DNA from: Candidatus Enterousia sp. | GTDB taxonomy: Bacteria > Pseudomonadota > Alphaproteobacteria > Rs-D84 | Assembly: GCA_045593065.1 (NCBI GenBank) | Contig: JAZNVZ010000007.1 | Coordinates: 89,724 to 153,723 of the forward strand | Reading direction: 5' to 3' | Length of the DNA: 64,000 nucleotides | Shown: positions 582 to 52,985 of the stretch, piece after piece | How the letters are laid out: every line of letters starts with the position of its first letter | How positions within the stretch are numbered: position 1 is the stretch's first letter | Notes under the pieces: generated by a model | Told to the model about the DNA's origin: nothing | The model's input: only the letters and a program-made list of their open reading frames with translations | Databases searched by the model: none | Position numbers and translations under genes: made by a program

Positions 582-603
582 TAATTTTCTGCACAAAATT
601 ACT

Positions 604-631
604 TGACAAAAATCGCTCGCCGTGTTAAATA
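604..631 (+). promoter_or_regulatory. candidate sigma70 promoter for the large hypothetical gene
   Basis: TTGACA (604-609), 16-nt spacer, TAAATA (626-631), about 30 nt upstream of the ATG at 660. Confidence 0.3.
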
Positions 632-659
632 TACTATTAATAAAAACCCGGGTAAAAAC

Positions 660-9926: not shown

Positions 9927-10958
9927 TTATTTTAATTTATTAGACAATTCTGCAATCGCGATTGCGTACCAATTTGAATTATTCCATTTTTTAATACGAT
10001 AGAAATTTGGGTATGTTAAATATGCAACCTTGTAAGATTGTGCATCAACATCGTTATCAGGCGATGACACCATATTAAATGCACCAGTATCATTATTATC
10101 TGCAACCAAACCAACCACAATATCTGTGCGATTTAACGGGGTGCCATCGGCGCGCACAACACCCATATCTGCCCATTTAGAATACGAATATTTTTTGTCG
10201 CCGTTTGTTAAACCTGTATCAAAATCCGCGGGAATCAAAACTTTTTGCACAATCGGTTCGTTTGCCGCCCAGCCCAATTTACCCAGATAATTGCCGGCAC
10301 TGAACATTGCGTCACTGACATTGTTTATAATATCAATTTTGCCGTCACCATTACCGTCTGTGCCGTATGCCGCAAGTGTTGTTGGAATAAATTGGAAATG
10401 CCCCATGGCACCTGCCCAACTGCCATGAATACTGTTTATATCCAACTGATTTGTATCGGCAATTTTCATCAATGCCAACAGTTGTTTTGTGAAAAATGTT
10501 TCACGCCGTCCATCATACATCAATGTAAAGAAAGCGTCTTTTAATCGATATGCAGATTTTACCGCGCCATAATTGGATTCCATTCCCCAAAACGCCAGAA
10601 TTACATTTTGTGGCACACCATATCTGGCAAAAGTTTTATTCAACAATGTTGGATATTTTTTTGCCATTGCACGACCAGAACGCACGCGTTCGGCACTGAC
10701 TGTGCGCCCCAGATAATCGTTTAATGTCAATTTGAATTCACTTTGGTTTTTGTCGTTATAAACGATTTTTGGAATAAAGACCGGCCCTTTTAATGTTGCA
10801 TCGATTGTTGCCGCAGAAATGTTATCGCGCTGTGCGGCTGTGCGAACAGAATCTTGCAATTCATTCCAACGGTCAAAATCAAAATCACCATTTGCCGATG
10901 CCACACCAGACATCATGGCAAACAACGCGCTATAAAACAATACGCCAAATTTTTTCAT
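9927..10958 (-). CDS. mltB: lytic murein transglycosylase (MltB family)
   Basis: Signal peptide; ILAFWGMESNYG catalytic Glu motif; AGAMGHFQFIPTT. The ORF may start at M1 (10970) or at MKKFGV. Confidence 0.7.
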   Translation of the reverse strand: MKKFGVLFYSALFAMMSGVASANGDFDFDRWNELQDSVRTAAQRDNISAATIDATLKGPVFIPKIVYNDKNQSEFKLTLNDYLGRTVSAERVRSGRAMAKKYPTLLNKTFARYGVPQNVILAFWGMESNYGAVKSAYRLKDAFFTLMYDGRRETFFTKQLLALMKIADTNQLDINSIHGSWAGAMGHFQFIPTTLAAYGTDGNGDGKIDIINNVSDAMFSAGNYLGKLGWAANEPIVQKVLIPADFDTGLTNGDKKYSYSKWADMGVVRADGTPLNRTDIVVGLVADNNDTGAFNMVSSPDNDVDAQSYKVAYLTYPNFYRIKKWNNSNWYAIAIAELSNKLK

Positions 10959-10980
10959 ATCATAAACCACCTATTTATTT

Positions 10981-12429
10981 CTAGAATGAATATTTTACAC
11001 CCAAATGCAAGCCAAAAGAACGCCAGGTCGCTTCTTTTAATGCGTCTGTTACGTGTTCTGTGGATGCGGGGTATCTTGTTGCAACAATATCATAATCATT
11101 GTTACCAACGGGCACCTCGGTATATTCGGTATATTCTGCCCAATAAATTTCGCCACCAATTTTTCCAACATGGAAATAATTTGTATCGGCCTTGATTGAT
11201 AAATGTAATCTGTCAGACAATTTCAAATCATATTCCATTTCCAATGAATATGCCAATGCACCGTTGTCGCCTTCGTCCAAGAAACTGGGGTTTTGTTGCC
11301 AATCTGTACGATTTGGCCATATACCTTCGGATGAATATTTCGGCATACTGATTTGACCATAGAAACGCAATTTATCGGTCAATGTCATTTGTTTTTCAAT
11401 TTCTAATCCAATATAAAATCCAGACCATGTTGTGTTATATTCATGCGTTTTCCCAGATACCAAAATTGGGCCATCACCACCAATTACAACACATTCGTCT
11501 GGGCCTACACCCCATGGCACATAAGGATTCGCCGCATCATACACATAATCAGACACGGTTAATGAATTATCAACATTTACATTTGCAACCTGAATTTGTT
11601 CGGGTGACACACAGACCTGGTAATAATTATCAACATAGTTTTCGGCCTGGTCCACAGGAATTGAATAATAAACACTCAAATCATTCGGGTCGCCAAACAC
11701 ATAATTTCCGTCTGCGGTCATTAATGGAATATAGACACCTTGGTTTGGATAATAATGATTACCCATTTCCAAATTATGTTTGAATATTTCGTATCCAATA
11801 ATTGGGGTCAATTTCCAACCAGCGATACTCCAAATATTTCGTGCACCAACACCAAAACGCATGTGATGACTTTCGCCACTTTGGTCGCCAACAGAAATTG
11901 TAAATATACCATCGTTTGGTCTGGAATCATCATACGGTCGCAAATCATAATCCATCGACAAACCCCCAGATGACATCTTGCCGTATGTATATTCGCCAAA
12001 TGCAGTTAAATCAAAATTACGCACAGTAAAATTATAACGACCACCAACCTGGAATTCGTTAAACATCATGTCGTCCCATTCCAGAACAGAATTAACACTG
12101 GTGGTAAATTCAAAATCTGCGAAACGGCGGTTATACCCACCATACACATAAAAACCGTTATTGGTCGCCGCCGGTTGTGCAATTCCGTTCGCCGTTACCA
12201 TACCCGCATAACCGGGAACACTTGTACCTTTTGGAACGCGGTAAGAGTATGTATTGGAAGAAACAACCTGTTTGTTGGTCGGCAAATAACTGGCTTGGGA
12301 CACATTTTGATAATTCGAACGCGCCACAGAACCGTAATTTTGATAATAAGGCGGCACCCCTTCGTTGCTGGCCAACGCGGGCGATACGGCGCAGATTCCC
12401 AATAAAAATGCAATACTATCCTTCCTCAT
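10981..12429 (-). CDS. outer membrane beta-barrel protein (Tyr/Gly-rich)
   Basis: Signal peptide MRKDSIAFLLGICAVSPALA. Alternating hydrophobic beta-strand pattern. C-terminus ...LGVKYSF ends in an aromatic residue. Confidence 0.55.
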   Translation of the reverse strand: MRKDSIAFLLGICAVSPALASNEGVPPYYQNYGSVARSNYQNVSQASYLPTNKQVVSSNTYSYRVPKGTSVPGYAGMVTANGIAQPAATNNGFYVYGGYNRRFADFEFTTSVNSVLEWDDMMFNEFQVGGRYNFTVRNFDLTAFGEYTYGKMSSGGLSMDYDLRPYDDSRPNDGIFTISVGDQSGESHHMRFGVGARNIWSIAGWKLTPIIGYEIFKHNLEMGNHYYPNQGVYIPLMTADGNYVFGDPNDLSVYYSIPVDQAENYVDNYYQVCVSPEQIQVANVNVDNSLTVSDYVYDAANPYVPWGVGPDECVVIGGDGPILVSGKTHEYNTTWSGFYIGLEIEKQMTLTDKLRFYGQISMPKYSSEGIWPNRTDWQQNPSFLDEGDNGALAYSLEMEYDLKLSDRLHLSIKADTNYFHVGKIGGEIYWAEYTEYTEVPVGNNDYDIVATRYPASTEHVTDALKEATWRSFGLHLGVKYSF

Positions 12430-16551: not shown

Positions 16552-16664
16552 ATAAACTGAACATGAATTTATATCAAAACAACGCGTTATTTTCGCGCTG
16601 TTTTTTTATTTGTTTTATGACCTAAAATATGATAAAATATTTATAAAAAGTAGGAGTGATATCG

Positions 16665-18980
16665 ATGAAAAGATTAGTTGTTGTTTTAAGCAGTTTGTTG
16701 GTTTTGCCCGCATTTGCAGAGGTTGCACCGTCTTTCTATGATGAAGAATTGGTGTTCGCTGATGCAGAATTCGGTGATGTTGACCCAGACATTGCAGACC
16801 AAGACCAAGAACCTGTGGCAAAACCCCAGGCCGCAAAAAAGCCCACGGTGGCAAACGCACGCAGCGCGACAAACACCCGCGCAACAACCGCGCGTACAAC
16901 AACAACCAGATCTGGGGTATCTGCACGCGTTCCAACAATACGCGCAAATACCACGACATCACGCGCAATATCTGGTCGTACATCATCTGCAACAACACCT
17001 GTACGCGCAACACCTGGGGTGTCTGCACGGCGTACGGGAACATATGGAAACACAAATGCACGCAGTGGCACCAAGGCACGTGCTGGGGTCGTTAACACAA
17101 CAACCAGATTATACAATGCAAACAATGCAACCGTGCAACAGCGCGGCAGTTCTGTTGGTGTCAGTGCCAGAAACAATACAATGCGTGCCGCGACATTAAC
17201 AACAACCACAACCGCAGACGATGTCATCGAAACAACAAATAATTTGGATACATTAAAATCTTTGACCGAATATTGCCAGACACAATACGCAACATGTATG
17301 GATAATTATTGCAATGTGTTGGACGATAACCAAGGACGTTGTTCTTGCTCTAAGAATTTATCAAATTATGAAAAGACCGAGGCCGCATTGCAATCTGCAA
17401 CCGAGGCATTACAAGATGTCGCACGCGCAATTCAATATATCGGTTTGACATCCGAACAAATTACAACACTGTTTGACGAAACCGAAGCCGAATTGACAAT
17501 GAAAAACCAAAAAGACAATTCCGCAATTCGTTCCGATTTGGACAAGGTTAAACGCATGATTGTTGATGTTAAATCTGGGACATCTACGGCATCTGTTGAC
17601 ACAGGTGGATTGAATCTGGATTTGTCTGGATTGTTAGATTTTACTATCGACAGTACCGGATTTGACCTATCTTCATTTATGACCAATACGACAAACACAA
17701 ACAGTATTTCAAATCAACGCGGCGAATCTTTGTTCAAAACCGCAACCGCGCGTTGCAAGGCATCTGTGTTGAATTCTTGCGTTGCCCAAGGGGTAGATGC
17801 CGCCATGATAACAAATTCTTATGATTTGGAAATTGACAAGTCATGTTTGGCATATGAACGCGCATTAAAAGATTCAAATACACAAATGACACAAACAGTT
17901 GCAAACGCAAAAGAAGTTTTGAAAAAAGCACGTTTGATGGTTGCACAAAATAAAAACGCATACGATTTACGCGGATGCGTCAGTGCATTGGAATCATGTA
18001 TGCAAGATGATTATGTATGCGGCAGTGATTACGAAAACTGTTTAGACCCAATCGGCCAATACATTGTAAACGGTGCCGTGGTCGTAGGTAGCATGCCAGG
18101 AAATAATACAGAAGGCGAAGACATCAGTTCAAGTTATTCCAATGATAATTTATTTAGGACATGGACTATCAATGCACAGAATCCTTGGGTTGCACAAACA
18201 AACTCCTCAAGTACTGATGCTAGTGATGATAATCCTAAATACAGCTCATTAGCAGATTATGTAGAAAGTAATGTGACTGCGGCGGCACCAAAGAAATCTT
18301 CTGACAAAATGATTAACTTTTTGCAGAACAAAATTGGTTGGCACGACAGCAAAAACAACAAAGATTATGGTATGTGTATGAGTGTATTAAATCAATGCCA
18401 AAAATACACATACGAAACCAAGGGCAATAAAACAACATACAATCCTGAAAATGATGTTATCAAGAATTTCTTGCAACGCGCATTGGTTCAAATCAAGGCA
18501 AAACAAGATGAATTATTGGCATCATACGGCGAAGATTGTATTAGCGATGTTCAAAGTTGTTTGTCCACAAACAATTACGATGAAAATTTGCCACAAAGCA
18601 CAAAAAGCCGTGCAGCAATCAATTCTTGCTATGCACAAATAAAAACATGTATGTCAATCAATGGCAATATCTATGGTTCGGTTACCCCGACCGAACTGCA
18701 AACATGGGTGACGGGCACATACAGTGCGATTGAATCAGTATCCACCCAGGCGGATTTAGATGCAGTGTGCGCTAACATCACTGACCCAGACACATGCAAT
18801 AACGCCAAAGTATATGTTGTTAGTTGCACTGGCAATACCAGTACATTAACACAAAATGTTTGTACATATAACGAGACATCTGGGTCATGTTCCAGAAAAG
18901 TTACTACTACTAATAGTATTCCGACACAATGTCCGGAGCCGACCACGGAGCCGACCACGGAGCCGACCACGGAACCGTAA
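16665..18980 (+). CDS. secreted cysteine-rich protein with Arg/Thr-rich low-complexity region and C-terminal (PEPTTE)n tail
   Basis: AGGAG RBS 8 nt upstream of the ATG at 16665 (the track start 16656 is GTG). Signal peptide MKRLVVVLSSLLVLPAFA. Residues ~60-190 are R/T/A/S-rich with three GVSAR motifs. About 30 Cys follow, and the protein ends with TEPTTEPTTEPTTEP. Confidence 0.6.
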   Translation: MKRLVVVLSSLLVLPAFAEVAPSFYDEELVFADAEFGDVDPDIADQDQEPVAKPQAAKKPTVANARSATNTRATTARTTTTRSGVSARVPTIRANTTTSRAISGRTSSATTPVRATPGVSARRTGTYGNTNARSGTKARAGVVNTTTRLYNANNATVQQRGSSVGVSARNNTMRAATLTTTTTADDVIETTNNLDTLKSLTEYCQTQYATCMDNYCNVLDDNQGRCSCSKNLSNYEKTEAALQSATEALQDVARAIQYIGLTSEQITTLFDETEAELTMKNQKDNSAIRSDLDKVKRMIVDVKSGTSTASVDTGGLNLDLSGLLDFTIDSTGFDLSSFMTNTTNTNSISNQRGESLFKTATARCKASVLNSCVAQGVDAAMITNSYDLEIDKSCLAYERALKDSNTQMTQTVANAKEVLKKARLMVAQNKNAYDLRGCVSALESCMQDDYVCGSDYENCLDPIGQYIVNGAVVVGSMPGNNTEGEDISSSYSNDNLFRTWTINAQNPWVAQTNSSSTDASDDNPKYSSLADYVESNVTAAAPKKSSDKMINFLQNKIGWHDSKNNKDYGMCMSVLNQCQKYTYETKGNKTTYNPENDVIKNFLQRALVQIKAKQDELLASYGEDCISDVQSCLSTNNYDENLPQSTKSRAAINSCYAQIKTCMSINGNIYGSVTPTELQTWVTGTYSAIESVSTQADLDAVCANITDPDTCNNAKVYVVSCTGNTSTLTQNVCTYNETSGSCSRKVTTTNSIPTQCPEPTTEPTTEPTTEP

Positions 18981-33529: not shown

Positions 33530-33603
33530 TGGCAGGGGCTAAAGGAATCGAACCCTTATCCGCGGTTTTGGAGACCGATATTCTACCGTTGAACTAAGCC
33601 CCT
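33530..33603 (-). tRNA. tRNA-Trp (anticodon CCA)
   Basis: The reverse complement folds as AGGGGCT acceptor, GTTC D-stem, CTCCAAA anticodon loop, GGTTCGATTCC T-arm and AGCCCCT-G-CCA. It sits in the canonical position upstream of secE. Confidence 0.85.
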
Positions 33604-33868: not shown

Positions 33869-34567
33869 ATGGGGAGGAAACCTTTGCAAGAACGCATAGA
33901 ACCGCCAATTTTAATGTCTCGATTAATGGCTTTTGTTATGGCAACGGCGGCGGTTGTGCTGGTTGTGTTGTTGATTACATTGGATAAAATGTTTCCATTA
34001 AATCGGCCACAGATATTCTTTTTAACAACCCAGGGTATTAATGACAAAGAAATAACTTTAACACAAATGCCCGAAGATTTAGATGGATATAAACGCCAGT
34101 TTATACGGGAATATATACGATATCGAAATGAAATTATCCCAAATATTTCCATTATGCGGGCCAGATGGGCGCCTACGCCAAATGGAATTATTAAATCTCG
34201 TTCAACTGATGCAATATTTGGTAATTTTGCCGATACTGAAATGGTCGCAATCATTCGTCAGGGCGATTTAGATGAACCGTTAACGATTTCTTGCGATGTT
34301 GAATTTCCTGCAAAAAACGCTGTCGTATCCAAGGTTGGCGAACCAAACACATATGTTGCTAGTTTTGATTATGTTTGCGAATATGGCGATTTGGCACCCC
34401 AGAAATATGTTCAAAAATACCAAATAATTGTAAAATTAGAATCAACAGAAAAAACGGCTATAAAATGGGCTGAACGCATGGAAAACCCATTGGGGTTCCG
34501 TGTGAGTGGATATACAGTGGCAAATGGACAAAGCGACCCTTTGAACTGGACCCAAAACGAAGAATAA
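33869..34567 (+). CDS. virB8: VirB8-like type IV secretion protein (bitopic, NTF2-like periplasmic domain)
   Basis: Size (~225 aa), a single N-proximal TM (LMAFVMATAAVVLVVLLITL), and a C-terminal NPLGFRVSGYTV motif matching the VirB8 NPLGFQVTSYR signature. The start is ambiguous: ATG at 33869, TTG at 33884 after GGAGGA, or ATG at 33914. Confidence 0.6.
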   Translation: MGRKPLQERIEPPILMSRLMAFVMATAAVVLVVLLITLDKMFPLNRPQIFFLTTQGINDKEITLTQMPEDLDGYKRQFIREYIRYRNEIIPNISIMRARWAPTPNGIIKSRSTDAIFGNFADTEMVAIIRQGDLDEPLTISCDVEFPAKNAVVSKVGEPNTYVASFDYVCEYGDLAPQKYVQKYQIIVKLESTEKTAIKWAERMENPLGFRVSGYTVANGQSDPLNWTQNEE

Positions 34568-34589: not shown

Positions 34590-36101
34590 ATGTTAAAAGT
34601 GTTTAAATTTAGCGGTTTGATGTGCGCACTGATGTTTTCTGTGGTAAATATTGCGTTTGGCGCCCAAAAGGCATGGGAAAACCCAAATGCAAACATGACC
34701 GCGGGCAGTGTTAAACCTGGGTATGCACAGTTGGCGTGGGCCCCTGGAACCGTATTGCCATTAAAATTGCGTTCTGGGATGGTAACAATGGTGTCTTTAC
34801 CAAACGGTGAACAAATTGCTGATGCAGTTATTGGCGATACTAGCGCGTTTGACATCAATACTACCCAGGGCGATAGAATTTTATATATTACACCCGCTAG
34901 TGACAATACCGAAAACGACACAAATTTAATTGTGTTGGGACAATCTGGAAATAAATACATATTCTACTTAAAGAGCTCTGGGCTTGAAGATGATGAAATT
35001 GCATATTCCCAGGTTGATGTCGTTTTGGACAATGGCGCATCGTTGGCGGGCGCAAATATTGCATCTGGGGCCAGAACATCTGGGGGCATGAATTCAATAT
35101 TTAGAAAATCTGCATCAACCAGCAGTACCCTTGGCGTTGATGGCGAAGATTATGCCTGGATAAAATCTATGAAAATTGACCCGTCTGAATTTAGATTTGA
35201 TTTGGATATATTTGTTCCAAATCCAGACGATTATGTAATTGCGCCTGAACGCGTATGGCGCGACAAGATATTCACATATATCGATTTCGGCGATAAAGTT
35301 ATCGCGATGACACAACGCCCCGTGGTATCATTGATGGTCGAAGGTGGCGAATCCCCCGTGGGATTTCGTACAGATGGTCAAGACGGACGCTTATTAATTG
35401 TCGAGGCCGTTGGCGATATGGTTTTGCGCAGCGGTCAACGTATTGTTTGCATTAAAAAACGCGAAAAACCTTTCTTGATTGCAGATACGGCATCTGTAAT
35501 GGCATTGGCCGAGGCAAATGTAGCACAAAGTATGATGTCTGGGCAATCGTTGAACAATATTGCGTATAATGCGGATATGTCGGCGGTAAATGCATCTGTG
35601 ATGGATTACAGTGCGACACCAATGTATATGTCCAACACCCCAGATACAACAGGTACTGGTGTATATGTGCCTGCGGGTTATTCTATGACCCCAGATACGC
35701 AAATGTACGGTAATTCCGGGGCATATATGATTCCAACAAAACGCGAAACCGCCGGGTCATATTTGCCACAATCAAATATACCACTGATTACATCTAATCA
35801 ATCAGGGGTTGCAGTTGAATTAGCATCCGATACAAAAATGAAACCGTTGGATGATTATTGGTCTGAATTATTGGTGAAATTCAGTGGCGATGGTGGCAAT
35901 GGGTTGTTGACACCATATCAAAACAAGGTTTTCTTTGCCGTAGATTCCCAAGGTGTTGGGGATTTGGGCGCGACATCAACAACATCTAAATTGTATCGTT
36001 TGCGCATTGGACCAATCGCGGATGTGGATACTGCGCAAACATTGTGCGACAAACTGATGAAATTCCAGGTTTCAGGATGTCGTGTGGTTAGAATTCAGTA
36101 A
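34590..36101 (+). CDS. virB9: VirB9/CagX/TrbG-like protein with extra Ser/Thr/Met-rich region and C-terminal SPOR-like domain
   Basis: Signal peptide. Residues ~190-290 (KIFTYIDFGDKVIAMTQRPVVSLMVEGGESPVGFRTDGQDGRLLIVEAVGDMVLRSGQRIVCIKKR) match the VirB9 C-terminal (CagX-type) domain. The last ~70 aa (LYRLRIGPIADVDTAQTLCDKL...GCRVVRI) resemble a SPOR domain. Confidence 0.6.
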   Translation: MLKVFKFSGLMCALMFSVVNIAFGAQKAWENPNANMTAGSVKPGYAQLAWAPGTVLPLKLRSGMVTMVSLPNGEQIADAVIGDTSAFDINTTQGDRILYITPASDNTENDTNLIVLGQSGNKYIFYLKSSGLEDDEIAYSQVDVVLDNGASLAGANIASGARTSGGMNSIFRKSASTSSTLGVDGEDYAWIKSMKIDPSEFRFDLDIFVPNPDDYVIAPERVWRDKIFTYIDFGDKVIAMTQRPVVSLMVEGGESPVGFRTDGQDGRLLIVEAVGDMVLRSGQRIVCIKKREKPFLIADTASVMALAEANVAQSMMSGQSLNNIAYNADMSAVNASVMDYSATPMYMSNTPDTTGTGVYVPAGYSMTPDTQMYGNSGAYMIPTKRETAGSYLPQSNIPLITSNQSGVAVELASDTKMKPLDDYWSELLVKFSGDGGNGLLTPYQNKVFFAVDSQGVGDLGATSTTSKLYRLRIGPIADVDTAQTLCDKLMKFQVSGCRVVRIQ

Positions 36102-36134: not shown

Positions 36135-38582
36135 ATGGCAAACACAATAAAAGAAAAAATTAAAGAAACATTTTATGATACCCCTGTGGCAATTCGTTGG
36201 ATGCTGTTGGGTGCGGCTTTTATTGTCGTGTTGATATTAATATCACTGGTAATCAACAAACCAAAACACCAAAATAAAATCGTATCTGCTGATAAAAATG
36301 TTAATTTAATTATCAATCCAGATTCTGCTGAAATGTTGGCGATTCCTGTGGGCGGCAAAGAATCCAGGGTATTTAACATCAAATCAACTGATGCCGTTGT
36401 TATTGATTCTGTCAAAATCCAAGATTCTGTTGACGGTTTTTCTATATTAAACGCATGTCAAGGTGATGCAGGGTCGATTAATCAAAACATTGGATGTAAA
36501 ATAACCGCGGTGTTTGCACCCGCAAACGCAAACATTTCGGGGCAAGTCAAACTGATTATCACATGGCACGACAGCGAAGATTTAGGCGATTTAAACAAAC
36601 GCACAGACACAATAAATGTAAATGTGGGTGTCAAAGCCGACCCAGAACCAATTAATATACAACCGTCAAAACCGGCGGTATTACCTGAACCAGAACCGGA
36701 ACCCGAATTGGAACCGGAACCGGAATTTGAACCAGAACCCGAACCCGCACCGGTTGGAACGAAACCTGTTTTAGAAAAACCTGCGCCTGTAGAAAAATCT
36801 GCATCTGCGCGGAAACGCGTGGAAAGATGTTCCGATTTTGCTATGCCAGGATACAGTAATGCCGGCGCGCAAATTGGTTGGATAAAACCAAATGCGGGAC
36901 GTTATGAATTTCACCCTTTTTCCGACAAAGAATGCAATAAACCCACAGGAATTTACAATCCAAATACAGGTATAATTACCAGTATCGACAGCGGTAAAAA
37001 AATTGGAACAGACGCAGATCATGTGGCCAAAAATGTGGATTTGACGGTTGTACCAGCATTAACATCAAAACCAAAAACCACTGGGACAAGTGCATCGACC
37101 GGCACCCCACGCACAGTTGGAAAATCTCAAAATTTAAAAAACGAATTTGCCACAGAACCCGGAATGCACTTGATACAAAAAACAATAAAAGAAGAAACAT
37201 TAAAGGGTTCTGCAGATACGACAGAGGCGGTAATCAATTCACGCCCGTACGACAGAACATTTATATTGCGTCAATTTAAACCAATTCCTGCAACAATAGT
37301 GTCCGAGGTTCGCGCTGACCCATCTGTGTACGGATGTAATAACAAGGATGCCAATGGCAGTTGCGATGGTGGCAGTGGCATTCCTGTCCGCGCAACGGTC
37401 GACAGAAATGTTTATTCTGACAATGGACGCACAATTATCATTCCCACAGGCACATTGTTAATGGGGTATTTAACTGGGGATTTACCGGGACCATATAAAA
37501 CCATTGGTCGTATGCAAATCAAATGGTATCAATTTATTCGTCCAGATGGTGTGGAATTTAATTTTAGCAGTAATGACCAAGACCCGTATTCTGCCGATTC
37601 CCAAGGGCGCGTTGGGGTTCCCGGATATGGCAGTACGGATTATATTGAACAAATGGTTATGCCTTTGTTAACCGCGATGGTTCCTGCGGCCGTTAATATG
37701 ATTGCGCCAATCGCTGACACATTCGTTAATCAAATCGATTTAGATAACAATACTGTTGTGCAATCCGGCAAGGTGCGTTCATCAGAATTAGCCAAGAACG
37801 AGGTTATAACCGCGTGGAATCAGGTTGCACAAAAATTAATCGTTGATGCATTAGATAACACAGTGCCACCATTTTCAATCGCTGCGGGCACCCGTATTAC
37901 CGTATATTCGCCTGTGGATTTAATCGCCACATGCGACAAAACAGAAAACGCTGGCAAAAAATGTGCATTTGAAACTTATAACGCCAATCCACGCCGTCCT
38001 TGGAAAGGTTTAAAAGAGCAAGTAAAGGTGGATTGGAACGATTCATCATGGACAGGGCAAGTGCGTTCGTTTAATCTAGACCGGTTTTGTACAGGTGATG
38101 CCAGCAGCGGCAAAAGAACCGCAGATAACACCCAGGCAGCCGAAATTTCCGCCGCAGGGTATGATTACAGAACCGTATTGGCATATTGCCAATCCCAAAA
38201 TTATCAGGCAAAAAACCAGGCAAAATACGATGCGTATTATCAAAATCTGACCGCTAATGCCAAGAATACGAATAAGGTCGAAGTAAATGAAAATGATGGA
38301 AAACTTTCTGTCAAATATAACGACGAATTTAATAAAAATGTTCTGGGGTTGGAATACGAAACTGATGAAGAGGGAAATGAAACAGGTCTTATAAAGAATC
38401 CATTTGAAAAATCTTCGTCTGTGCCTGCAACAGAATCTGTGGGCAGTTTGGATTGCGATGGCACGGCACCTGATGCAAATGGATGTTGCCCTGGGGAAAC
38501 ATATACCGATATGGGCGACCAAGGATTTAACTGTTGCCCTGCGGGCGGCGGCGATTGTTTCCCACCGTTAAATGTAAATTAA
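36135..38582 (+). CDS. virB10: VirB10-like protein (815 aa) with (PE)n repeat and long Cys-rich C-terminal extension
   Basis: N-terminal cytoplasmic segment plus TM (WMLLGAAFIVVLILISLVI). Pro-rich PEPEPEPELEPEPEFEPEPEPAP. VirB10 barrel-domain motif GRTIIIPTGTLLMGYLTGDLPG. About 230 extra C-terminal residues end in DCDGTAPDANGCCPGETY...NCCPAGGGDCFPP. Confidence 0.65.
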   Translation: MANTIKEKIKETFYDTPVAIRWMLLGAAFIVVLILISLVINKPKHQNKIVSADKNVNLIINPDSAEMLAIPVGGKESRVFNIKSTDAVVIDSVKIQDSVDGFSILNACQGDAGSINQNIGCKITAVFAPANANISGQVKLIITWHDSEDLGDLNKRTDTINVNVGVKADPEPINIQPSKPAVLPEPEPEPELEPEPEFEPEPEPAPVGTKPVLEKPAPVEKSASARKRVERCSDFAMPGYSNAGAQIGWIKPNAGRYEFHPFSDKECNKPTGIYNPNTGIITSIDSGKKIGTDADHVAKNVDLTVVPALTSKPKTTGTSASTGTPRTVGKSQNLKNEFATEPGMHLIQKTIKEETLKGSADTTEAVINSRPYDRTFILRQFKPIPATIVSEVRADPSVYGCNNKDANGSCDGGSGIPVRATVDRNVYSDNGRTIIIPTGTLLMGYLTGDLPGPYKTIGRMQIKWYQFIRPDGVEFNFSSNDQDPYSADSQGRVGVPGYGSTDYIEQMVMPLLTAMVPAAVNMIAPIADTFVNQIDLDNNTVVQSGKVRSSELAKNEVITAWNQVAQKLIVDALDNTVPPFSIAAGTRITVYSPVDLIATCDKTENAGKKCAFETYNANPRRPWKGLKEQVKVDWNDSSWTGQVRSFNLDRFCTGDASSGKRTADNTQAAEISAAGYDYRTVLAYCQSQNYQAKNQAKYDAYYQNLTANAKNTNKVEVNENDGKLSVKYNDEFNKNVLGLEYETDEEGNETGLIKNPFEKSSSVPATESVGSLDCDGTAPDANGCCPGETYTDMGDQGFNCCPAGGGDCFPPLNVN

Positions 38583-38640: not shown

Positions 38641-38796
38641 TAAAATAAATCTATTTGTCGATTCGAATCGAATTAGGAAAATATTGCTAAAATGTCTGTT
38701 TTTCGATTCGAATTTCAACCATCGGTTGAAGTATTTGGCATATATATTTATTTTGTTATATAACAACAATGTATAAAAAACAAAAGGAGAATATCA

Positions 38797-39143
38797 TGAA
38801 CAAATTACAACAACAGACCCCCAGTAATATGGAAAAATTTCACAACGCAGAACAAATGTGGTTTTGGTTTTTATATTCTAAATCTGTACAATCCAGATTT
38901 TCAAATAATAAACCAAATGGGTCAAAACACATATGCGAACTGTTAGATGTTGAAACATTAATTACTAAATTATATTTATCAGGAAAATTAACAGCCGAAC
39001 AACTGCAAATCATGAAAAAATTCGGCGATCGGCGGCGCGCACCACACCAATACATCTGGGCAGAAAATCATGCCGCATATTTATGGGCCAGTGCCATGGA
39101 AACATTGGGCGATGCCGCACGCAAAAATGGTTGGATAGATTAA
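38797..39143 (+). CDS. hypothetical protein (115 aa)
   Basis: AAAAGGAGAAT RBS before the ATG at 38797 (the track ORF starts at 38769). No recognisable motif. Preceded by palindromic TCGATTCGAAT repeats. Confidence 0.45.
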
Positions 39144-39167
39144 AATAAATAAAAAGGCGATATAACA

Positions 39168-39521
39168 ATGACTATTATTGGGTTTGCAAAAAACACTTCG
39201 AAATGTTTACCACGCATATTGTGCGGTCAATTCAAACATTGTGCACTGATTACACAACACAACGATAAATTTGTTTTGCATCAATTTGTAAAACGAAAAT
39301 GTATTCGGCGTATTACAATTACAGAACGCGGACTGACCCAACTGGAATCGAATGGTTGGGTTTTTATTTATACAAAATTGCCGATACAATCATTTAATCA
39401 AAATGCATGGACATGTGTGAGTTATGTAAAACACGCAGTTGGAACGCATAATTTTTTAATTCAAACGCCAAATGGGTTATATAAATATTTACAAAAAAAT
39501 CTGCAAAAAAATCTGACATAA
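39168..39521 (+). CDS. hypothetical protein (117 aa), Cys/His-containing
   Basis: ORF downstream of the previous gene, terminated by a strong hairpin. A QNAWTC...H pattern is present but no family could be assigned. Confidence 0.4.
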   Translation: MTIIGFAKNTSKCLPRILCGQFKHCALITQHNDKFVLHQFVKRKCIRRITITERGLTQLESNGWVFIYTKLPIQSFNQNAWTCVSYVKHAVGTHNFLIQTPNGLYKYLQKNLQKNLT

Positions 39522-47100: not shown

Positions 47101-47985
47101 TTATTGCATCAATCGCATGCAATGCGTGCCATTGCCATTACAGAATTTTGTAAATGCACCTATCTTGCATTGTCTTATACTGGTTGCGCCTGGCTCGCCC
47201 TGAAAGGTTGGGTCGTGTATTGCTGTTGACTCAGGCGTAGTAACAACTGTCAGCATGCCGGCGGGACACTTGGTACAACCCGCGTAAGGATCGCCATAGG
47301 TATTTCCCTTGCACACACATTCATTATTACCCCCGACAAAGGCGTAATCCCCGCACGAGCGACAGGTAACAACACCATTGGTGCCAATGGTTTTATACCT
47401 GCCACTGGGACACCCCACTGTTGCACTGGTTGCGCCAGCATTTTCACACCCGGTCCAATCATTGCCGCATGATTGACATGTAAATGTATTGTCGATTAAA
47501 CCACCATTTGCATTGGTTGTTTTATAATACCCTGATTGACATGTACAAGCATTAATATCGGTTGCACCTTGGGCACTGGTGGAATGTTCTGGACATTCGG
47601 TACATTCGCCGGCGCCGGTGTTTGCATCATACGAACTGCGGTAATAATTCATGGTGCATACCCACGGGCAATATGATAGACCAGTGGTATTATCGTCAGC
47701 AGGGTTAAAAACAGAGTTACCAGGGTGATCGGATGCGGTTTCTGCCCACGACCAAACACTATTATCATATGAACCACATTTTAGGCAGGAGCGTGAGTCG
47801 TTACCAGGGTTGTAGTAAAACGAAGCACATTGTGTACATTCTCCACCAAACATTGAACTGGATGCATTCCACTCCCACCCCGGACATACACAATCATTTT
47901 CGGGTGTGGACGACGTACACTCTGCATTTGCCATAAATGGCATAAATACCGCAATAATTAATAAAAATTTTAGTATTTTTTTCAT
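47101..47985 (-). CDS. secreted cysteine-rich repeat protein (GCC2_GCC3 / Giardia VSP-like CxxC repeats)
   Basis: Start at MKKILKFLLIIAVFMPFMANA with a GGGGAAGGGAA RBS (the track ORF starts 23 codons upstream). About 40 Cys arranged as repeated C-x2-C...G-x-Y(Y) units: GECTQCASFYY, CLKCGSYD, GECTECPEH, CTCQSGYY, TCQSCGNDW, TCRSCGDYAF, CTKCPAGM. Confidence 0.6.
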   Translation of the reverse strand: MKKILKFLLIIAVFMPFMANAECTSSTPENDCVCPGWEWNASSSMFGGECTQCASFYYNPGNDSRSCLKCGSYDNSVWSWAETASDHPGNSVFNPADDNTTGLSYCPWVCTMNYYRSSYDANTGAGECTECPEHSTSAQGATDINACTCQSGYYKTTNANGGLIDNTFTCQSCGNDWTGCENAGATSATVGCPSGRYKTIGTNGVVTCRSCGDYAFVGGNNECVCKGNTYGDPYAGCTKCPAGMLTVVTTPESTAIHDPTFQGEPGATSIRQCKIGAFTKFCNGNGTHCMRLMQ

Positions 47986-48103
47986 TTCCCTTCCCCTTTT
48001 TGACCTTGCCAAAACTTTACACCAAAAAAAAAAAACGCAAGATTTTTGTTGCAAAAAATATATTTTATGACAAAATGCAGGTATGTATATAAAGGAGCCC
48101 TAT

Positions 48104-51781: not shown

Positions 51782-52942
51782 TTAATGAAATACAAAACTG
51801 TCAATCCCGGCATTCGTGGCCGCATTGCGCAATTTTTGCGCCGCAGTTTCCGCAATATTATTCACACGCACACGAAATAGACCGCCGGATGCCGTCTCGA
51901 TTGTTGCGGATACACCCAATGCCTGTTCCACATTTTTAACCTGGCGCATTGCCGCATCACGCGATGAAAATGCACCAAATTGAACCCCGGACATACCGCT
52001 TGCTAAATTATTATTTTTTGGTTTATCTGTTGTATATTTTGCCATTGGGTTATTTTCATTTATTGGTTTTGTCGCATATGTTGGTGCGTATGTTTGATTT
52101 GTTGTCGCCGCAGATGTTGGATTATGCACAACCACAGGTTCTGCACCATTTTCCAACATTTTGAATCCACGATTTAATAAACTGGTCGCAACAGTTGAAC
52201 GCACATCTTTGTTTTCTGCACCCAACACAACCGCAATCAAATGACGACCGCCCCGCGATGCCGTTGCCACCAAAGAATATTTTGATTTGTTTGTAAATCC
52301 TGTTTTCATGCCATCGCACCCATCATATGATGTCAGCAATCGATTTCCATTGGTATATGTTTGACCATTATAGTTCCAACTTTTAATACCAAAATATTTC
52401 CAATATTGTGGAAAATGTTTATATACCGCAACCGACAATAACGCAATATCACGCGCAGTCGATAAATGGTCATCATCCGGCAGACCAGACGAATTTTCAA
52501 AATTTGTTTGTTCCAATCCAATTTCCGTTGCAACCTGGGTCATGAGTGATGCAAAATTCCCTTCTTTGCCACCTTTTAAATTTTCAGCCAACACACGCGC
52601 AACATCATTCGCACTGTGCACCGCAACGGCCTTAATCGCATCTTCGACCTTGATTTTAGACCCGGCCGGCAGTCCCAATTTTACAGGTTCTGCATTTGCC
52701 GCCGCATTTGACACAATCAAATAATCATCCAAATGTAAACGCCCGTGTTCCAACGCATTAAATGTCAAATACAATGTCATGATTTTTGTTAAACTGGCCG
52801 GGTAATTTGGAACATTTGCATTTTCAGAATACAAAACACGACCAGAATCCATATCTGCAACCAATGCCGCACGATATGGCGCCGCATGCGCAAATCCGCA
52901 CATGAACAAAATCGGCAAAACAAGTAGGATTTTTCTCATCAT
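51782..52942 (-). CDS. dacA: D-alanyl-D-alanine carboxypeptidase (PBP5/6 family) with C-terminal SPOR domain
   Basis: Signal peptide MMRKILLVLPILFMCGFAHA; SLTK, SAN and KTG motifs; C-terminal GVQFGAFSSRDAAMRQ...FRVRVNNI SPOR-like domain. Confidence 0.75.
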   Translation of the reverse strand: MMRKILLVLPILFMCGFAHAAPYRAALVADMDSGRVLYSENANVPNYPASLTKIMTLYLTFNALEHGRLHLDDYLIVSNAAANAEPVKLGLPAGSKIKVEDAIKAVAVHSANDVARVLAENLKGGKEGNFASLMTQVATEIGLEQTNFENSSGLPDDDHLSTARDIALLSVAVYKHFPQYWKYFGIKSWNYNGQTYTNGNRLLTSYDGCDGMKTGFTNKSKYSLVATASRGGRHLIAVVLGAENKDVRSTVATSLLNRGFKMLENGAEPVVVHNPTSAATTNQTYAPTYATKPINENNPMAKYTTDKPKNNNLASGMSGVQFGAFSSRDAAMRQVKNVEQALGVSATIETASGGLFRVRVNNIAETAAQKLRNAATNAGIDSFVFH

Positions 52943-52985
52943 GATATTCATGTTAGTAAAAATTATTGCCATCGGTCAATTAATT

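What the first reader, a model, noticed from the sequence alone, without database searches (positions are those of the whole stretch)
34590..36101. VirB9-like protein fused to a low-complexity linker and a SPOR-like peptidoglycan-binding domain
The VirB9 C-terminal (CagX-type) domain ends near residue 290. The protein then continues for about 210 residues. A Ser/Thr/Met/Tyr-rich segment (MSGQSLNNIAYNADMSAVNASVMDYSATPMYMSNTPDTTGTGVYVPAGYSMTPDTQMYGNSGAYMIP) is followed by a terminal segment, LYRLRIGPIADVDTAQTLCDKLMKFQVSGCRVVRI, which follows the SPOR half-repeat pattern (LYRVRVGPF...A..L...G..VV). A SPOR domain on VirB9 would tether the outer-membrane core complex to denuded septal-type peptidoglycan. 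I am not aware of this being a standard architecture. The dacA homolog in this window also carries a SPOR domain, so the fold is in use in this organism.
Basis: inference. Interest (0 to 1): 0.65.

Follow-up and report, generated by a model that had tools for sequence, protein, structure and literature searches.

The report
VirB9 with a divergent SPOR-like tail
The outer-membrane ring protein (VirB9) of this gut bacterium's type IV secretion machine really does carry a conserved extra C-terminal domain with the fold of a cell-wall-binding SPOR domain. The key sugar-binding glutamine of that fold is replaced by glutamate, so it probably anchors the machine to the cell wall in a non-standard way, or serves as a structural piece.

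Summary
ORF 34590-36101 (+) is one intact 503-aa gene between virB8 and virB10. It has a Sec-type leader and a VirB9/CagX domain (res 47-290). After that come two highly conserved predicted helices (293-330), a variable low-complexity tether (331-381), a conserved motif (382-404) and a C-terminal domain (405-503).

That C-terminal domain passes the Pfam SPOR threshold. AlphaFold2 folds it as beta-alpha-beta-beta-alpha-beta (pLDDT 84.5). Its best PDB fold matches are the RlpA and DedD SPOR domains.

It is not a frameshift. All 120 listed homologues (67-99% identity) cover at least 87% of the query, and 119 are 486-528 aa long. 255 GTDB species genomes (Ca. Enterousia, order Rs-D84) encode a relative. 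The same tail occurs in about 33-49% identical VirB9s, including megaplasmids of cultured Erythrobacter aureus and Sphingosinicella.

The Gln that canonical SPOR domains use to bind denuded glycan (FtsN Q251, RlpA Q270) is Glu in 121/121 close homologues. It is Glu or Asp in 30/33 distant ones. FtsN Q251E is a published binding-defective mutation. The Arg pair of the basic patch and two invariant Cys are kept.

The best reading is a wall-anchoring module with altered specificity. A purely structural, protein-binding role is a serious rival. I found no published description.

The parts
33869..34567 (+). virB8 homologue (232 aa), first gene of the virB8-virB9-virB10 unit
   Evidence: Pfam VirB8 PF04335, E 1e-06. 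Found directly upstream of virB9 in 79 of 80 Enterousia loci.
34590..36101 (+). virB9 homologue with C-terminal extension (503 aa plus stop), the finding itself
   Evidence: Single ORF. All 120 listed homologues cover at least 87% of it, and 119 are 486-528 aa long. 255 GTDB species genomes encode a relative.
34590..34661 (+). Sec-type signal peptide (res 1-24, MLKVFKFSGLMCALMFSVVNIAFG|AQ), implying export to the periplasm
   Evidence: Read from the sequence: a basic n-region, a hydrophobic core and an A-F-G cleavage motif. No predictor was run. The N-terminus varies among homologues (column identity 0.47). No conserved lipobox Cys is seen (alignment).
34728..35459 (+). VirB9/CagX region (res 47-290), holding the N-terminal and C-terminal beta domains of the outer-membrane core complex subunit
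   Evidence: PF03524, E 1.6e-22, profile positions 5-197 of 198. Residues 183-292 have 0.98 mean column identity.
35466..35579 (+). Conserved segment after the VirB9 domain (res 293-330, KPFLIADTASVMALAEANVAQSMMSGQSLNNIAYNAD), predicted as two helices, role unknown
   Evidence: Column identity 0.94 within Enterousia. Helices predicted at 301-317 and 323-334, but with low pLDDT. Only partly conserved in distant relatives.
35580..35732 (+). Variable low-complexity tether (res 331-381), rich in Thr, Ser, Met, Tyr, Ala and Gly
   Evidence: Column identity 0.56. The span between the flanking conserved motifs is 58-68 residues in 112 homologues. pLDDT is below 50. In distant relatives the segment ranges from about 50 to over 200 residues.
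35733..35801 (+). Conserved pre-domain motif (res 382-404, PTKRETAGSYLPQSNIPLITSNQ)
   Evidence: Column identity 0.88. Recognisable as ..LP..[NH][IV]PL[IV].. in several distant relatives. Residues 399-400 form a short strand or bridge in the model.
35802..36098 (+). SPOR-like domain (res 405-503). Strands and helices: beta1 406-414, alpha1 417-432, beta2 447-453, beta3 467-476, alpha2 479-490, beta4 498-502. Key residues: Glu410 (35817-35819) at the canonical Gln position, Arg470 and Arg472 (35997-36005) as the basic patch, and the invariant pair Cys486 and Cys497 (36045-36047, 36078-36080).
   Evidence: Pfam SPOR above threshold (18 of 22 diverse members hit). AlphaFold2 pLDDT 84.5. Foldseek top hits are RlpA and DedD SPOR domains. 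hhalign to canonical SPOR, E 7e-6. Residue counts. The GAA codon for Glu410 was read.
36135..38582 (+). virB10 homologue (815 aa), the partner of VirB9 in the core complex
   Evidence: Pfam TrbI PF03743, residues 384-592, E 6e-15. Found downstream of virB9 in 80 of 80 loci.
38769..39521 (+). Two small conserved ORFs (124 and 117 aa) downstream of virB10, possibly accessory genes of the same unit
   Evidence: No Pfam hit. Syntenic in 72-74 of 80 Enterousia loci. Their function was not examined.

Best explanation
Shown. This is the VirB9 (outer-membrane core complex) subunit of a chromosomal, vertically inherited type IV secretion system. The host is Candidatus Enterousia (order Rs-D84), a gut alphaproteobacterium with a genome under 1 Mb. 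The protein is exported by a Sec-type leader. After the normal VirB9 domains it carries a conserved tail: two conserved predicted helices, a variable tether whose flanking motifs lie 58-68 residues apart, and a roughly 100-residue SPOR-fold domain with two invariant cysteines.

Inferred.
- The two cysteines form a disulfide between helix alpha2 and strand beta4.
- Each VirB9 copy in the ring hangs one such domain on a flexible tether just under the outer membrane. There are 14 copies in the solved VirB7/9/10-type complexes (from general knowledge, not tested here).
- The domains bind glycan strands of the sacculus around the hole the machine occupies. That would staple the outer-membrane ring to the cell wall with high avidity.
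- The binding cleft keeps the Arg470/Arg472 basic patch but has Glu in place of the canonical Gln. The Phe cap is also lost. The ligand or affinity is therefore probably not that of septal SPOR domains. The domain should be called SPOR-like until binding is measured.
For: Architecture:
- Single ORF.
- CagX plus SPOR by Pfam.
- virB8-virB9-virB10 gene order in 79-80 of 80 loci.

Fold:
- AlphaFold2 pLDDT 84.5 with beta-alpha-beta-beta-alpha-beta topology.
- Foldseek ranks 1-3 are RlpA and DedD SPOR domains.
- hhalign against FtsN, DamX, DedD, RlpA and DacA SPOR domains: probability 84%, E 7e-6, across the whole domain.
- Pfam SPOR hits 18 of 22 diverse members.

Selection:
- Mean column identity of the domain is 0.81, equal to the VirB9 N-terminal domain (0.80). 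The tether scores 0.56.
- The tail persists down to about 33% identity. It is found in 33 of the 149 best 50%-cluster representatives, including E. aureus and Sphingosinicella megaplasmid T4SSs.

Cleft residues (register):
- Arg470 is conserved in 120/121 close homologues and Arg472 in 121/121. They align with FtsN R285 and RlpA R309/R311, which bind the MurNAc lactyl carboxylate (PMC6895207).
- Cys486 and Cys497 are invariant in 154/154 sequences. This fits an oxidising, extracytoplasmic location and recalls the disulfide required in the FtsN SPOR domain.

The organism makes peptidoglycan and uses a canonical SPOR domain on DacA. It also encodes an MltB-type lytic transglycosylase.
Against: - Glu410 replaces the most conserved glycan-contacting residue, and the equivalent FtsN Q251E mutation weakens denuded-glycan binding.
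- The Phe cap (RlpA F274) is absent.
- The first half of the domain is too divergent for the Pfam SPOR model. In the Erythrobacter, Sphingosinicella and Microvirga proteins Pfam does not detect SPOR at all.
- There is a precedent for peptidoglycan-binding folds in a T4SS core complex that have lost key binding residues and are thought not to bind peptidoglycan: DotK and Lpg0657 (PMC7511231).
- No binding data exist.
- The full-length model is poor (pLDDT 48.5), so the position of the tail relative to the ring is unknown.
Confidence: 0.5

Rival explanations
1. Canonical SPOR function. The domain binds denuded, peptide-free glycan strands made by amidases at the septum. That would tether the core complex there and, after division, leave machines at new poles.
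For: - SPOR fold and Pfam membership.
- The basic patch Arg470/Arg472 is conserved.
- SPOR-glycan recognition relies largely on main-chain contacts (PMC6895207), so one side-chain change need not abolish binding.
- Fourteen-fold avidity could compensate for weak sites (inference).
- One distant relative (P0133) has Gln at the position.
Against: - Glu, not Gln, in 121/121 close homologues, and Glu or Asp in 30/33 distant ones.
- Q251E is the published binding-defective FtsN allele.
- A carboxylate would face the lactyl carboxylate of MurNAc(1) that Gln normally hydrogen-bonds.
- The Phe cap is lost.
- The DacA SPOR domain in the same genome keeps both residues, so the change is specific to VirB9 and is selected for.
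Confidence: 0.18
2. Co-opted structural module. The SPOR fold no longer binds peptidoglycan. It is a protein-protein interaction domain that docks on another T4SS component, for example the enlarged VirB10, VirB8 or an unrecognised partner. Alternatively it forms an extra periplasmic ring.
For: - Loss of the hallmark Gln and Phe.
- Family-specific conserved features absent from canonical SPOR domains: the L420-E421-x-x-W424 motif in alpha1, insertions between alpha1 and beta2 and between beta2 and beta3, and the conserved pre-domain motif.
- The direct precedent of DotK and Lpg0657 in the Dot/Icm core complex (PMC7511231).
- VirB10 partners in this clade are unusually large: 815 aa here and 2717 aa in L081.
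Against: - A variable, disordered tether of 60 to over 200 residues suits reaching a diffuse target such as the sacculus better than a fixed subunit interface.
- The conserved exposed residues lie on the canonical glycan-binding sheet face and include the Arg pair.
- No co-varying partner was identified.
Confidence: 0.25
3. Surface-exposed tail. The two conserved helices after the VirB9 domain carry the chain through or alongside the outer-membrane pore. The tether and SPOR-like domain would then sit outside the cell and bind glycans of a partner or host cell.
For: - Rs-D84 bacteria are proposed to be obligate symbionts or parasites that depend on other cells (PMC12306168).
- Residues 293-330 are nearly invariant and of unknown role.
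- Ser/Thr-rich tethers are common in surface proteins (general knowledge).
Against: - There is no evidence for a membrane-crossing segment. Two predicted helices would return the chain to the periplasm, and their pLDDT is about 28.
- The helices are not conserved in the wider clade that keeps the domain.
- All characterised SPOR domains act in the periplasm.
Confidence: 0.05
4. Artefact. The extension is a separate downstream gene fused by a sequencing or assembly frameshift, or the SPOR match is due to chance.
For: The Pfam score is only just above threshold and covers half of the model. A single-sequence PDB search gave only spurious hits.
Against: - Collinear homologues, 119 of 120 of them 486-528 aa long, come from many independent assemblies (NCBI, ENA, JGI, Logan). 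They include closed genomes and RefSeq plasmids of cultured strains.
- Fold, profile-profile and per-member Pfam evidence all agree.
Confidence: 0.01

Closest known systems
Canonical VirB9/TraO/TrbG outer-membrane core complex subunits (Pfam CagX PF03524; A. tumefaciens VirB9, pKM101 TraO)
   Same: - A Sec-exported protein with the VirB9 N- and C-terminal beta domains (PF03524 profile 5-197 of 198).
- Encoded between virB8 and virB10.
- It presumably forms the ring together with VirB10.
   Different: - About 210 extra C-terminal residues: helices, tether and SPOR-like domain.
- It scores far below the NCBIfam VirB9 equivalog cutoff (55.7 against 217.7 bits).
- It belongs to a divergent clade: only 470 50%-cluster representatives are detectable by phmmer.
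- Other plasmid VirB9s matched only residues 26-292. The two checked in full, Paracaedimonas (318 aa) and Azospirillum (444 aa), lack the tail.
SPOR domains of cell-division proteins (FtsN, DamX, DedD, RlpA; Pfam PF05036; PDB 6i09, 6i05, 6ztg)
   Same: - RNP-like beta-alpha-beta-beta-alpha-beta fold.
- The [YF]-R-[LV]-R-[IV]-G-P strand with a basic pair matching RlpA R309/R311 and FtsN R285.
- A periplasmic location with a structural disulfide that involves the beta4 cysteine aligned with FtsN C312.
   Different: - The Gln that contacts MurNAc(1) and GlcNAc(2) is replaced by Glu or Asp, and the Phe cap by Asp, Gly or Asn.
- The disulfide partner lies in alpha2, not beta1.
- The alpha1-beta2 and beta2-beta3 loops are longer, so the domain is about 100 rather than about 75 residues.
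- It is attached to a secretion-machine subunit rather than a divisome or peptidoglycan-remodelling protein.
- There is no detectable BLASTP similarity to the DacA SPOR domain of the same genome.
DotK and Lpg0657 of the Legionella Dot/Icm T4BSS core complex
   Same: These are peptidoglycan-binding-type folds built into a T4SS outer-membrane core complex. Several key peptidoglycan-binding residues are missing, and the authors suspect no direct peptidoglycan interaction (PMC7511231).
   Different: - They are separate proteins with a different peptidoglycan-binding fold (OmpA-like, from my own knowledge), not a SPOR domain.
- They are rigidly docked in the complex rather than hung on a long flexible tether fused to VirB9.
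Peptidoglycan-binding modules fused to other trans-envelope machines: T6SS TssL/TagL OmpA-like extension, T2SS GspA/ExeA, AMIN domains of the T4P secretin PilQ, flagellar MotB (from my own knowledge, not tested here)
   Same: The general logic is the same: a wall-binding domain fused or attached to an envelope-spanning machine fixes it in the sacculus.
   Different: The fold families differ (OmpA-like, PF01471, AMIN). To my knowledge and within the searched library, none uses a SPOR fold and none is on a T4SS VirB9.
VirB9 proteins of alphaproteobacterial megaplasmid T4SSs (Erythrobacter aureus YH-07 WP_115418090.1, 432 aa; Sphingosinicella sp. BN140058 WP_129392748.1, 430 aa)
   Same: - About 37% identity in the VirB9 part.
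- A homologous C-terminal domain (family HMM E about 1e-19) with Asp at the Gln position, the R-L-R-V-G-P strand and both cysteines.
- At least the Erythrobacter gene sits in a full virB2-virB11/virD4 cluster.
   Different: - The tether is shorter.
- Pfam SPOR is not detected.
- They are plasmid-borne in free-living, cultured bacteria, not chromosomal in a reduced genome.

Membership tests
VirB9/TrbG/CagX (Pfam PF03524) | Match to the family HMM above the gathering score over most of the model | tested here: met
   80.8 bits against a cutoff of 34.2, profile positions 5-197 of 198, residues 47-290.
VirB9/TrbG/CagX (Pfam PF03524) | Encoded with the other core-complex genes (virB8 upstream, virB10 downstream) | tested here: met
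   VirB8 PF04335 at 33869-34567 and TrbI PF03743 at 36135-38582. The same order is found in 79-80 of 80 related loci and in L081, L082, L087, L092 and L093.
VirB9/TrbG/CagX (Pfam PF03524) | Equivalog-level identity with P-type VirB9 (NCBIfam TIGR02781) | tested here: not met
   55.7 bits against a cutoff of 217.7. It is a divergent member of the superfamily, not an equivalog of Ti-plasmid VirB9.
VirB9/TrbG/CagX (Pfam PF03524) | Forms the outer-membrane core ring with VirB7 and VirB10 | not testable with these tools
   No VirB7-like small lipoprotein ORF lies next to virB8 in the window. Assembly can only be shown experimentally.
SPOR domain (Pfam PF05036) | Match to the family HMM above the gathering score | tested here: met
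   22.2 bits (full protein) and 25.6-25.8 bits (C-terminus alone) against a cutoff of 21. Only profile positions 36-73 of 76 are matched. 18 of 22 diverse family members hit at E up to 0.01. The Erythrobacter, Sphingosinicella and Microvirga proteins do not hit.
SPOR domain (Pfam PF05036) | RNP-like beta-alpha-beta-beta-alpha-beta fold with a four-stranded sheet | tested here: met
   AlphaFold2 model with pLDDT 84.5 and pTM 0.76. The Foldseek PDB top 3 are RlpA and DedD SPOR domains. hhalign against the canonical SPOR alignment covers the whole domain at E 7e-6.
SPOR domain (Pfam PF05036) | Conserved Gln in beta1 that hydrogen-bonds the MurNAc lactyl group and the GlcNAc N-acetyl group (FtsN Q251, RlpA Q270, DamX Q351) | tested here: not met
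   Glu410 aligns with Q251. The position is Glu in 121/121 close homologues and Glu 23, Asp 7, Gln 1 in 33 distant representatives. The role of the Gln and the Q251E defect are documented.
SPOR domain (Pfam PF05036) | Aromatic cap (Phe at HMM position 12; RlpA F274) | tested here: not met
   Asp414 here. Asp in 120/121 close homologues, and Gly, Asp or Asn in distant ones.
SPOR domain (Pfam PF05036) | Basic patch on the sheet that binds the free lactyl carboxylate (RlpA R302, R309, R311; FtsN R285) | tested here: met
   Arg470 is conserved in 120/121 close homologues and Arg472 in 121/121. In distant representatives Arg470 is Arg in 24/33 and Arg472 in 28/33. Both align with R285 and R309/R311.
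SPOR domain (Pfam PF05036) | Binds denuded peptidoglycan glycan strands and localises to the septum | not testable with these tools
   This needs sacculus pull-down, ITC or localisation experiments.

The most novel reading that the evidence does not exclude
The Gln-to-Glu cleft is an adaptation, not decay. On this reading the VirB9 tail is a new specificity class of SPOR-derived domain that reads a non-canonical wall mark. One candidate is N-deacetylated glycan, which has a positively charged amine that canonical SPOR domains are predicted not to bind (simulations in PMC6895207). Another is glycan ends produced when the hole for the machine is cut. Such a mark would decide where T4SS machines are inserted. 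In the extreme version the tail is surface-exposed and docks onto the wall of a partner cell of these obligate symbionts.
Probability: 0.1. Interest if true: 0.75.

Novelty: new variant of a known kind. Interest (0 to 1): 0.5.

Why it matters
How type IV secretion machines are fixed in the peptidoglycan layer, and placed within it, is poorly understood. The classical model systems have a lytic transglycosylase (VirB1) but no dedicated wall-binding subunit.

Here a whole clade of alphaproteobacterial T4SSs has a wall-binding-type domain covalently fused to the core-ring protein, and the domain is conserved under selection. The clade includes the core chromosomal system of Ca. Enterousia/Rs-D84, which are abundant, uncultured gut bacteria with reduced genomes.

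Two tractable questions follow.
- Does a T4SS core complex need a wall anchor?
- What does a SPOR fold bind when its hallmark Gln is Glu?

Cultured carriers (Erythrobacter aureus YH-07, Sphingosinicella sp. BN140058) make both questions experimentally accessible.

The finding also flags a T4SS that is not mentioned in the one metabolic description of Rs-D84 bacteria that I read. That paper proposes they depend on other cells.

Tried and rejected
- A single-sequence phmmer search of the C-terminal 123 aa against PDB sequences gave only spurious matches to designed Symfoil beta-trefoils. The profile search gave nothing significant and no SPOR chain. SPOR domains are too divergent for sequence-only PDB searches, so I used fold and profile-profile comparisons instead.
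- The full-length AlphaFold2 model built from a shallow, closely related alignment was poor (pLDDT 48.5). Even the near-invariant VirB9 C-terminal domain scored about 25. It says nothing about how the tail sits relative to the ring.
- A family-specific HMM and a strict SPOR motif found no second copy of this domain type in the window. The DacA SPOR domain was found only by Pfam.
- I considered calling the system 'rvh-type' (Rickettsiales-like). The reasons were the scattered chromosomal virB8-9-10 unit, and locus L081, which has five unannotated genes between virB4 and a duplicated virB8. None of those genes hit Pfam, including the VirB6/TrbL family, so I do not make this claim.
- I did not test Rickettsiales VirB9 proteins.
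- Promoter and terminator scans around the operon were no better than shuffled sequence.
- No VirB7-like lipoprotein ORF was found upstream of virB8.
- Frameshift or fusion artefact: rejected.
Full report
**1. Observation**

The ORF at 34590-36101 (+) is one uninterrupted frame of 503 codons. It lies 22 bases after a virB8 homologue (33869-34567, Pfam VirB8). It lies 33 bases before a virB10 homologue (36135-38582, Pfam TrbI). The unit is divergent from the tRNA-Trp/secE/nusG/rplKAJL/rpoBC cluster.

Pfam places the VirB9/CagX domain at residues 47-290 (E 1.6e-22). It places a SPOR match at residues 461-497, at 22.2 bits against a threshold of 21. The score is 25.8 bits when the last 103 residues are scanned alone. 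Only the second half of the SPOR model (positions 36-73 of 76) is matched.

The dacA homologue with a SPOR domain also exists, at 51782-52972 (-). It has Peptidase_S11 plus SPOR at 28.2 bits over profile positions 7-74 of 76.

**2. Not an artefact, and not unique to this genome**

A search of 5.8 billion proteins found at least 1468 relatives. The best 120 share 67-99% identity. All cover at least 87% of the query (most 95-100%), and 119 of them are 486-528 aa long. A 23-sequence alignment is collinear across the whole extension.

A scan of one genome per GTDB species found 255 genomes encoding a relative. The titles name Candidatus Enterousia and uncultured alphaproteobacteria from rumen, gut and faeces, including a closed 958,618-bp chromosome. 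Enterousia belongs to order Rs-D84. Its members have genomes under about 1 Mb, lack most biosynthesis, and are proposed to be obligate symbionts or parasites (PMC12306168). That paper does not mention secretion systems.

The block nusG-secE | virB8-virB9-virB10-orf124-orf117 is conserved in 72-80 of the 80 fetched loci. This is therefore a vertically inherited core system.

**3. Anatomy of the extension** (column identity in the 23-sequence alignment)

| Residues | Segment | Mean column identity |
|---|---|---|
| 25-150 | VirB9 N-terminal domain | 0.80 |
| 183-292 | VirB9 C-terminal domain | 0.98 |
| 293-330 | Post-domain segment, two helices predicted at low confidence | 0.94 |
| 331-381 | Variable tether rich in Thr, Ser, Met, Tyr, Ala and Gly | 0.56 |
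| 382-404 | Conserved motif | 0.88 |
| 405-503 | Terminal domain | 0.81 |

The span between the motifs that flank the tether is 58-68 residues in 112 homologues. The terminal domain is thus as constrained as the VirB9 N-terminal domain.

**4. Fold of the terminal domain**

I used an alignment that includes distant relatives (A2). With it, AlphaFold2 models residues 396-503 with mean pLDDT 84.5 and pTM 0.76. The order of elements is beta1, alpha1, a short helix, beta2, beta3, alpha2, beta4.

In a Foldseek search of the PDB, ranks 1-3 are SPOR domains:
- P. aeruginosa RlpA with bound denuded glycan (6i09; probability 1.00, target TM 0.73).
- Apo RlpA (6i05).
- DedD (6ztg).

Unrelated ferredoxin-like folds follow at lower probability.

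A profile-profile comparison of A2 with an alignment of the SPOR domains of E. coli FtsN, DamX, DedD and RlpA and the window's DacA (A3) aligns 75 columns across the whole domain. The probability is 84% and E is 7e-6. Pfam SPOR hits 18 of the 22 members of A2 individually. The SPOR fold is therefore established as far as computation allows.

**5. The binding cleft is not canonical**

The hhalign register gives these equivalences. The RlpA equivalents of Gln and the basic patch are as stated in PMC6895207. F274 is placed by its position in the V-Q-x-G-A/S-F motif.

| This protein | FtsN | RlpA | Role in canonical SPOR |
|---|---|---|---|
| Glu410 | Q251 | Q270 | Glycan-contacting Gln |
| Asp414 | F255 | F274 | Aromatic cap |
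| Arg470 | R285 | R309 | Basic patch |
| Arg472 | - | R311 | Basic patch |
| Cys497 | C312 | - | Disulfide |

According to the RlpA-glycan crystal structures, Q270 is the only side chain highly conserved among SPOR domains. It hydrogen-bonds the lactyl carboxylate of MurNAc(1) and the N-acetyl group of GlcNAc(2). F274 caps the site, and an Arg cluster binds the carboxylate freed by amidases (PMC6895207). FtsN Q251E reduces septal localisation and denuded-glycan binding of the isolated domain (bioRxiv 10.1101/2024.05.13.594014).

Counts for the VirB9 family:

| Position | 121 close sequences | 33 distant 50%-cluster representatives |
|---|---|---|
| Gln position (410) | Glu 121 | Glu 23, Asp 7, Gln 1 |
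| Phe position (414) | Asp 120 | Gly, Asp or Asn most often |
| Arg470 | Arg 120 | Arg 24, His 6 |
| Arg472 | Arg 121 | Arg 28 |
| Cys486 and Cys497 | Cys 121 | Cys 33 |

The Glu codon is GAA, one base from Gln's CAA. The DacA SPOR domain of the same genome keeps 'VQFGAFS...LFRVRV'. The acidic residue is therefore a selected, family-specific feature.

The hydrophobic-polar alternation of beta1 and beta3 places Glu410, Arg470 and Arg472 on the exposed sheet face, which is the canonical binding face. This is inferred from the sequence. I had no access to model coordinates.

**6. Breadth**

An exhaustive phmmer search of 1.84 billion 50%-identity cluster representatives found only 470 relatives at E up to 1e-3. 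This shows a divergent VirB9 clade.

An iterated family HMM finds the tail domain in 33 of the best 149 representatives, and in 22 of the 88 that are at least 380 aa long. It reaches down to about 33% identity.

Gene contexts of four such proteins:

| Locus | Context |
|---|---|
| L081 | virB4, five unannotated genes, virB8, a 66-aa ORF, virB8, virB9, a 2717-aa VirB10, virB11 |
| L082 | virB9, virB10, virB11, virD4 |
| L092 | rpsB-tsf, then virB8, virB9 and a 733-aa protein |
| L093 | virB8, virB9, a 283-aa protein, virB10 |

In PLSDB the closest plasmid VirB9s (about 37% identity) are on megaplasmids of Erythrobacter aureus YH-07 and Sphingosinicella sp. BN140058. Both carry the homologous tail, with family HMM E about 1e-19. 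Their sequence reads '...YEVDLGS...VRLRVGPF...C...C...'. The Erythrobacter gene sits in a virB2-virB4-virB8-virB9-virB10-virB11-virD4 cluster. Pfam does not call SPOR in these proteins.

Microvirga has a marginal, probably degenerate version. The Azospirillum and Paracaedimonas plasmid VirB9s have none.

**7. Literature**

No paper in the held library contains both 'VirB9' and 'SPOR domain'. Two papers contain both words, VirB9 and SPOR, as whole-word matches. I judged these incidental from their titles and did not read them.

Papers holding both 'type IV secretion' and 'SPOR domain' did not look relevant from their titles. I opened one, and it was unrelated. A 2025 review of T4SS diversity never mentions SPOR.

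Databases name these proteins only 'TrbG/VirB9 family'. The precomputed Pfam column shows SPOR in just 4 of the 120 closest homologues. That probably explains why the architecture has gone unnoticed.

**8. Mechanism**

Shown:
- An exported VirB9 carries a conserved tail made of a flexible tether and a SPOR-fold domain.
- The domain has two invariant cysteines.
- The basic patch is retained and the Gln position is acidic.

Inferred:
- The domains hang from the periplasmic face of the O-layer, 14 per complex by analogy with solved VirB7/9/10 complexes.
- They bind the sacculus and anchor the ring.
- The specificity or affinity differs from that of septal SPOR domains.

I give this a probability of about 0.5.

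The main rival (about 0.25) is that the fold has been co-opted as a protein-binding structural module. This is what has been proposed for the peptidoglycan-binding-like DotK and Lpg0657 in the Dot/Icm core complex, which lack key binding residues (PMC7511231). A surface-exposed adhesin gets about 0.05. An artefact gets about 0.01.

**9. Verdict**

The feature is a new variant of a known kind: a VirB9 core subunit fused to a divergent SPOR-like module. It is analogous in logic to the wall-binding extensions of T6SS, T2SS, T4P and flagellar stator components.

Interest is moderate (0.5). The architecture is real, widespread, undescribed and testable in cultured relatives. However, the function is inferred, and the idea of wall anchoring is not itself surprising.

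Noticed in passing
window 36135-38582 (+); L081 11611-19764: The VirB10 homologue is unusually large at 815 aa. The TrbI domain covers only residues 384-592. It is preceded by a long N-terminal part with a (Pro-Glu)n linker. It is followed by an extension of about 220 aa that ends in a Cys-rich tail (…CDGTAPDANGCCPGETYTDMGDQGFNCCPAGGGDCFPP). In a distant relative the VirB10 homologue is 2717 aa, with 21 beta-flower repeats before the TrbI domain.
   Followed up: partly
window 38769-39143 and 39168-39521 (+): Two small ORFs (124 and 117 aa) with no Pfam match are conserved directly downstream of virB10 in 72-74 of 80 Enterousia loci. They may be unrecognised accessory or regulatory genes of the T4SS unit.
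   Followed up: partly
window 35466-35579 (+), VirB9 residues 293-330: A nearly invariant segment (0.94 column identity) lies right after the VirB9 C-terminal domain. It is predicted as two helices at low confidence and is only partly conserved outside the Enterousia group. Its role, and whether it affects the topology of the tail, is unknown.
   Followed up: partly
window 51782-52972 (-): The DacA-type D,D-carboxypeptidase (Peptidase_S11) has a canonical C-terminal SPOR domain (VQFGAFS…LFRVRV).
   Followed up: yes
window 603-3278 (+), 16656-18980 (+), 61504-62820 (-): Three large ORFs (891, 774 and 437 aa) have no significant Pfam match. That is notable in a genome of under 1 Mb.
   Followed up: no
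window 10981-12429 (-) and 9927-10970 (-): A 482-aa protein matches the Protochlamydia outer-membrane protein (Pom) family. Next to it is an MltB-type lytic transglycosylase (SLT_2, E 4e-86). The organism therefore remodels its peptidoglycan.
   Followed up: no
window 47101-48054 (-): A 317-aa protein has a Cys-rich Ephrin_rec_like repeat match. That family is mostly eukaryotic, so it could be a host- or partner-interaction protein.
   Followed up: no
window 55010-56998 (+): A ComEC-type competence channel (Competence plus DUF4131 domains) is retained in this reduced genome.
   Followed up: no
window 33530-33603 (-): tRNA-Trp (CCA) lies between secE and the virB8 start. The virB unit is thus inserted at the boundary of the conserved tRNA-Trp/secE/nusG cluster.
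   Followed up: yes
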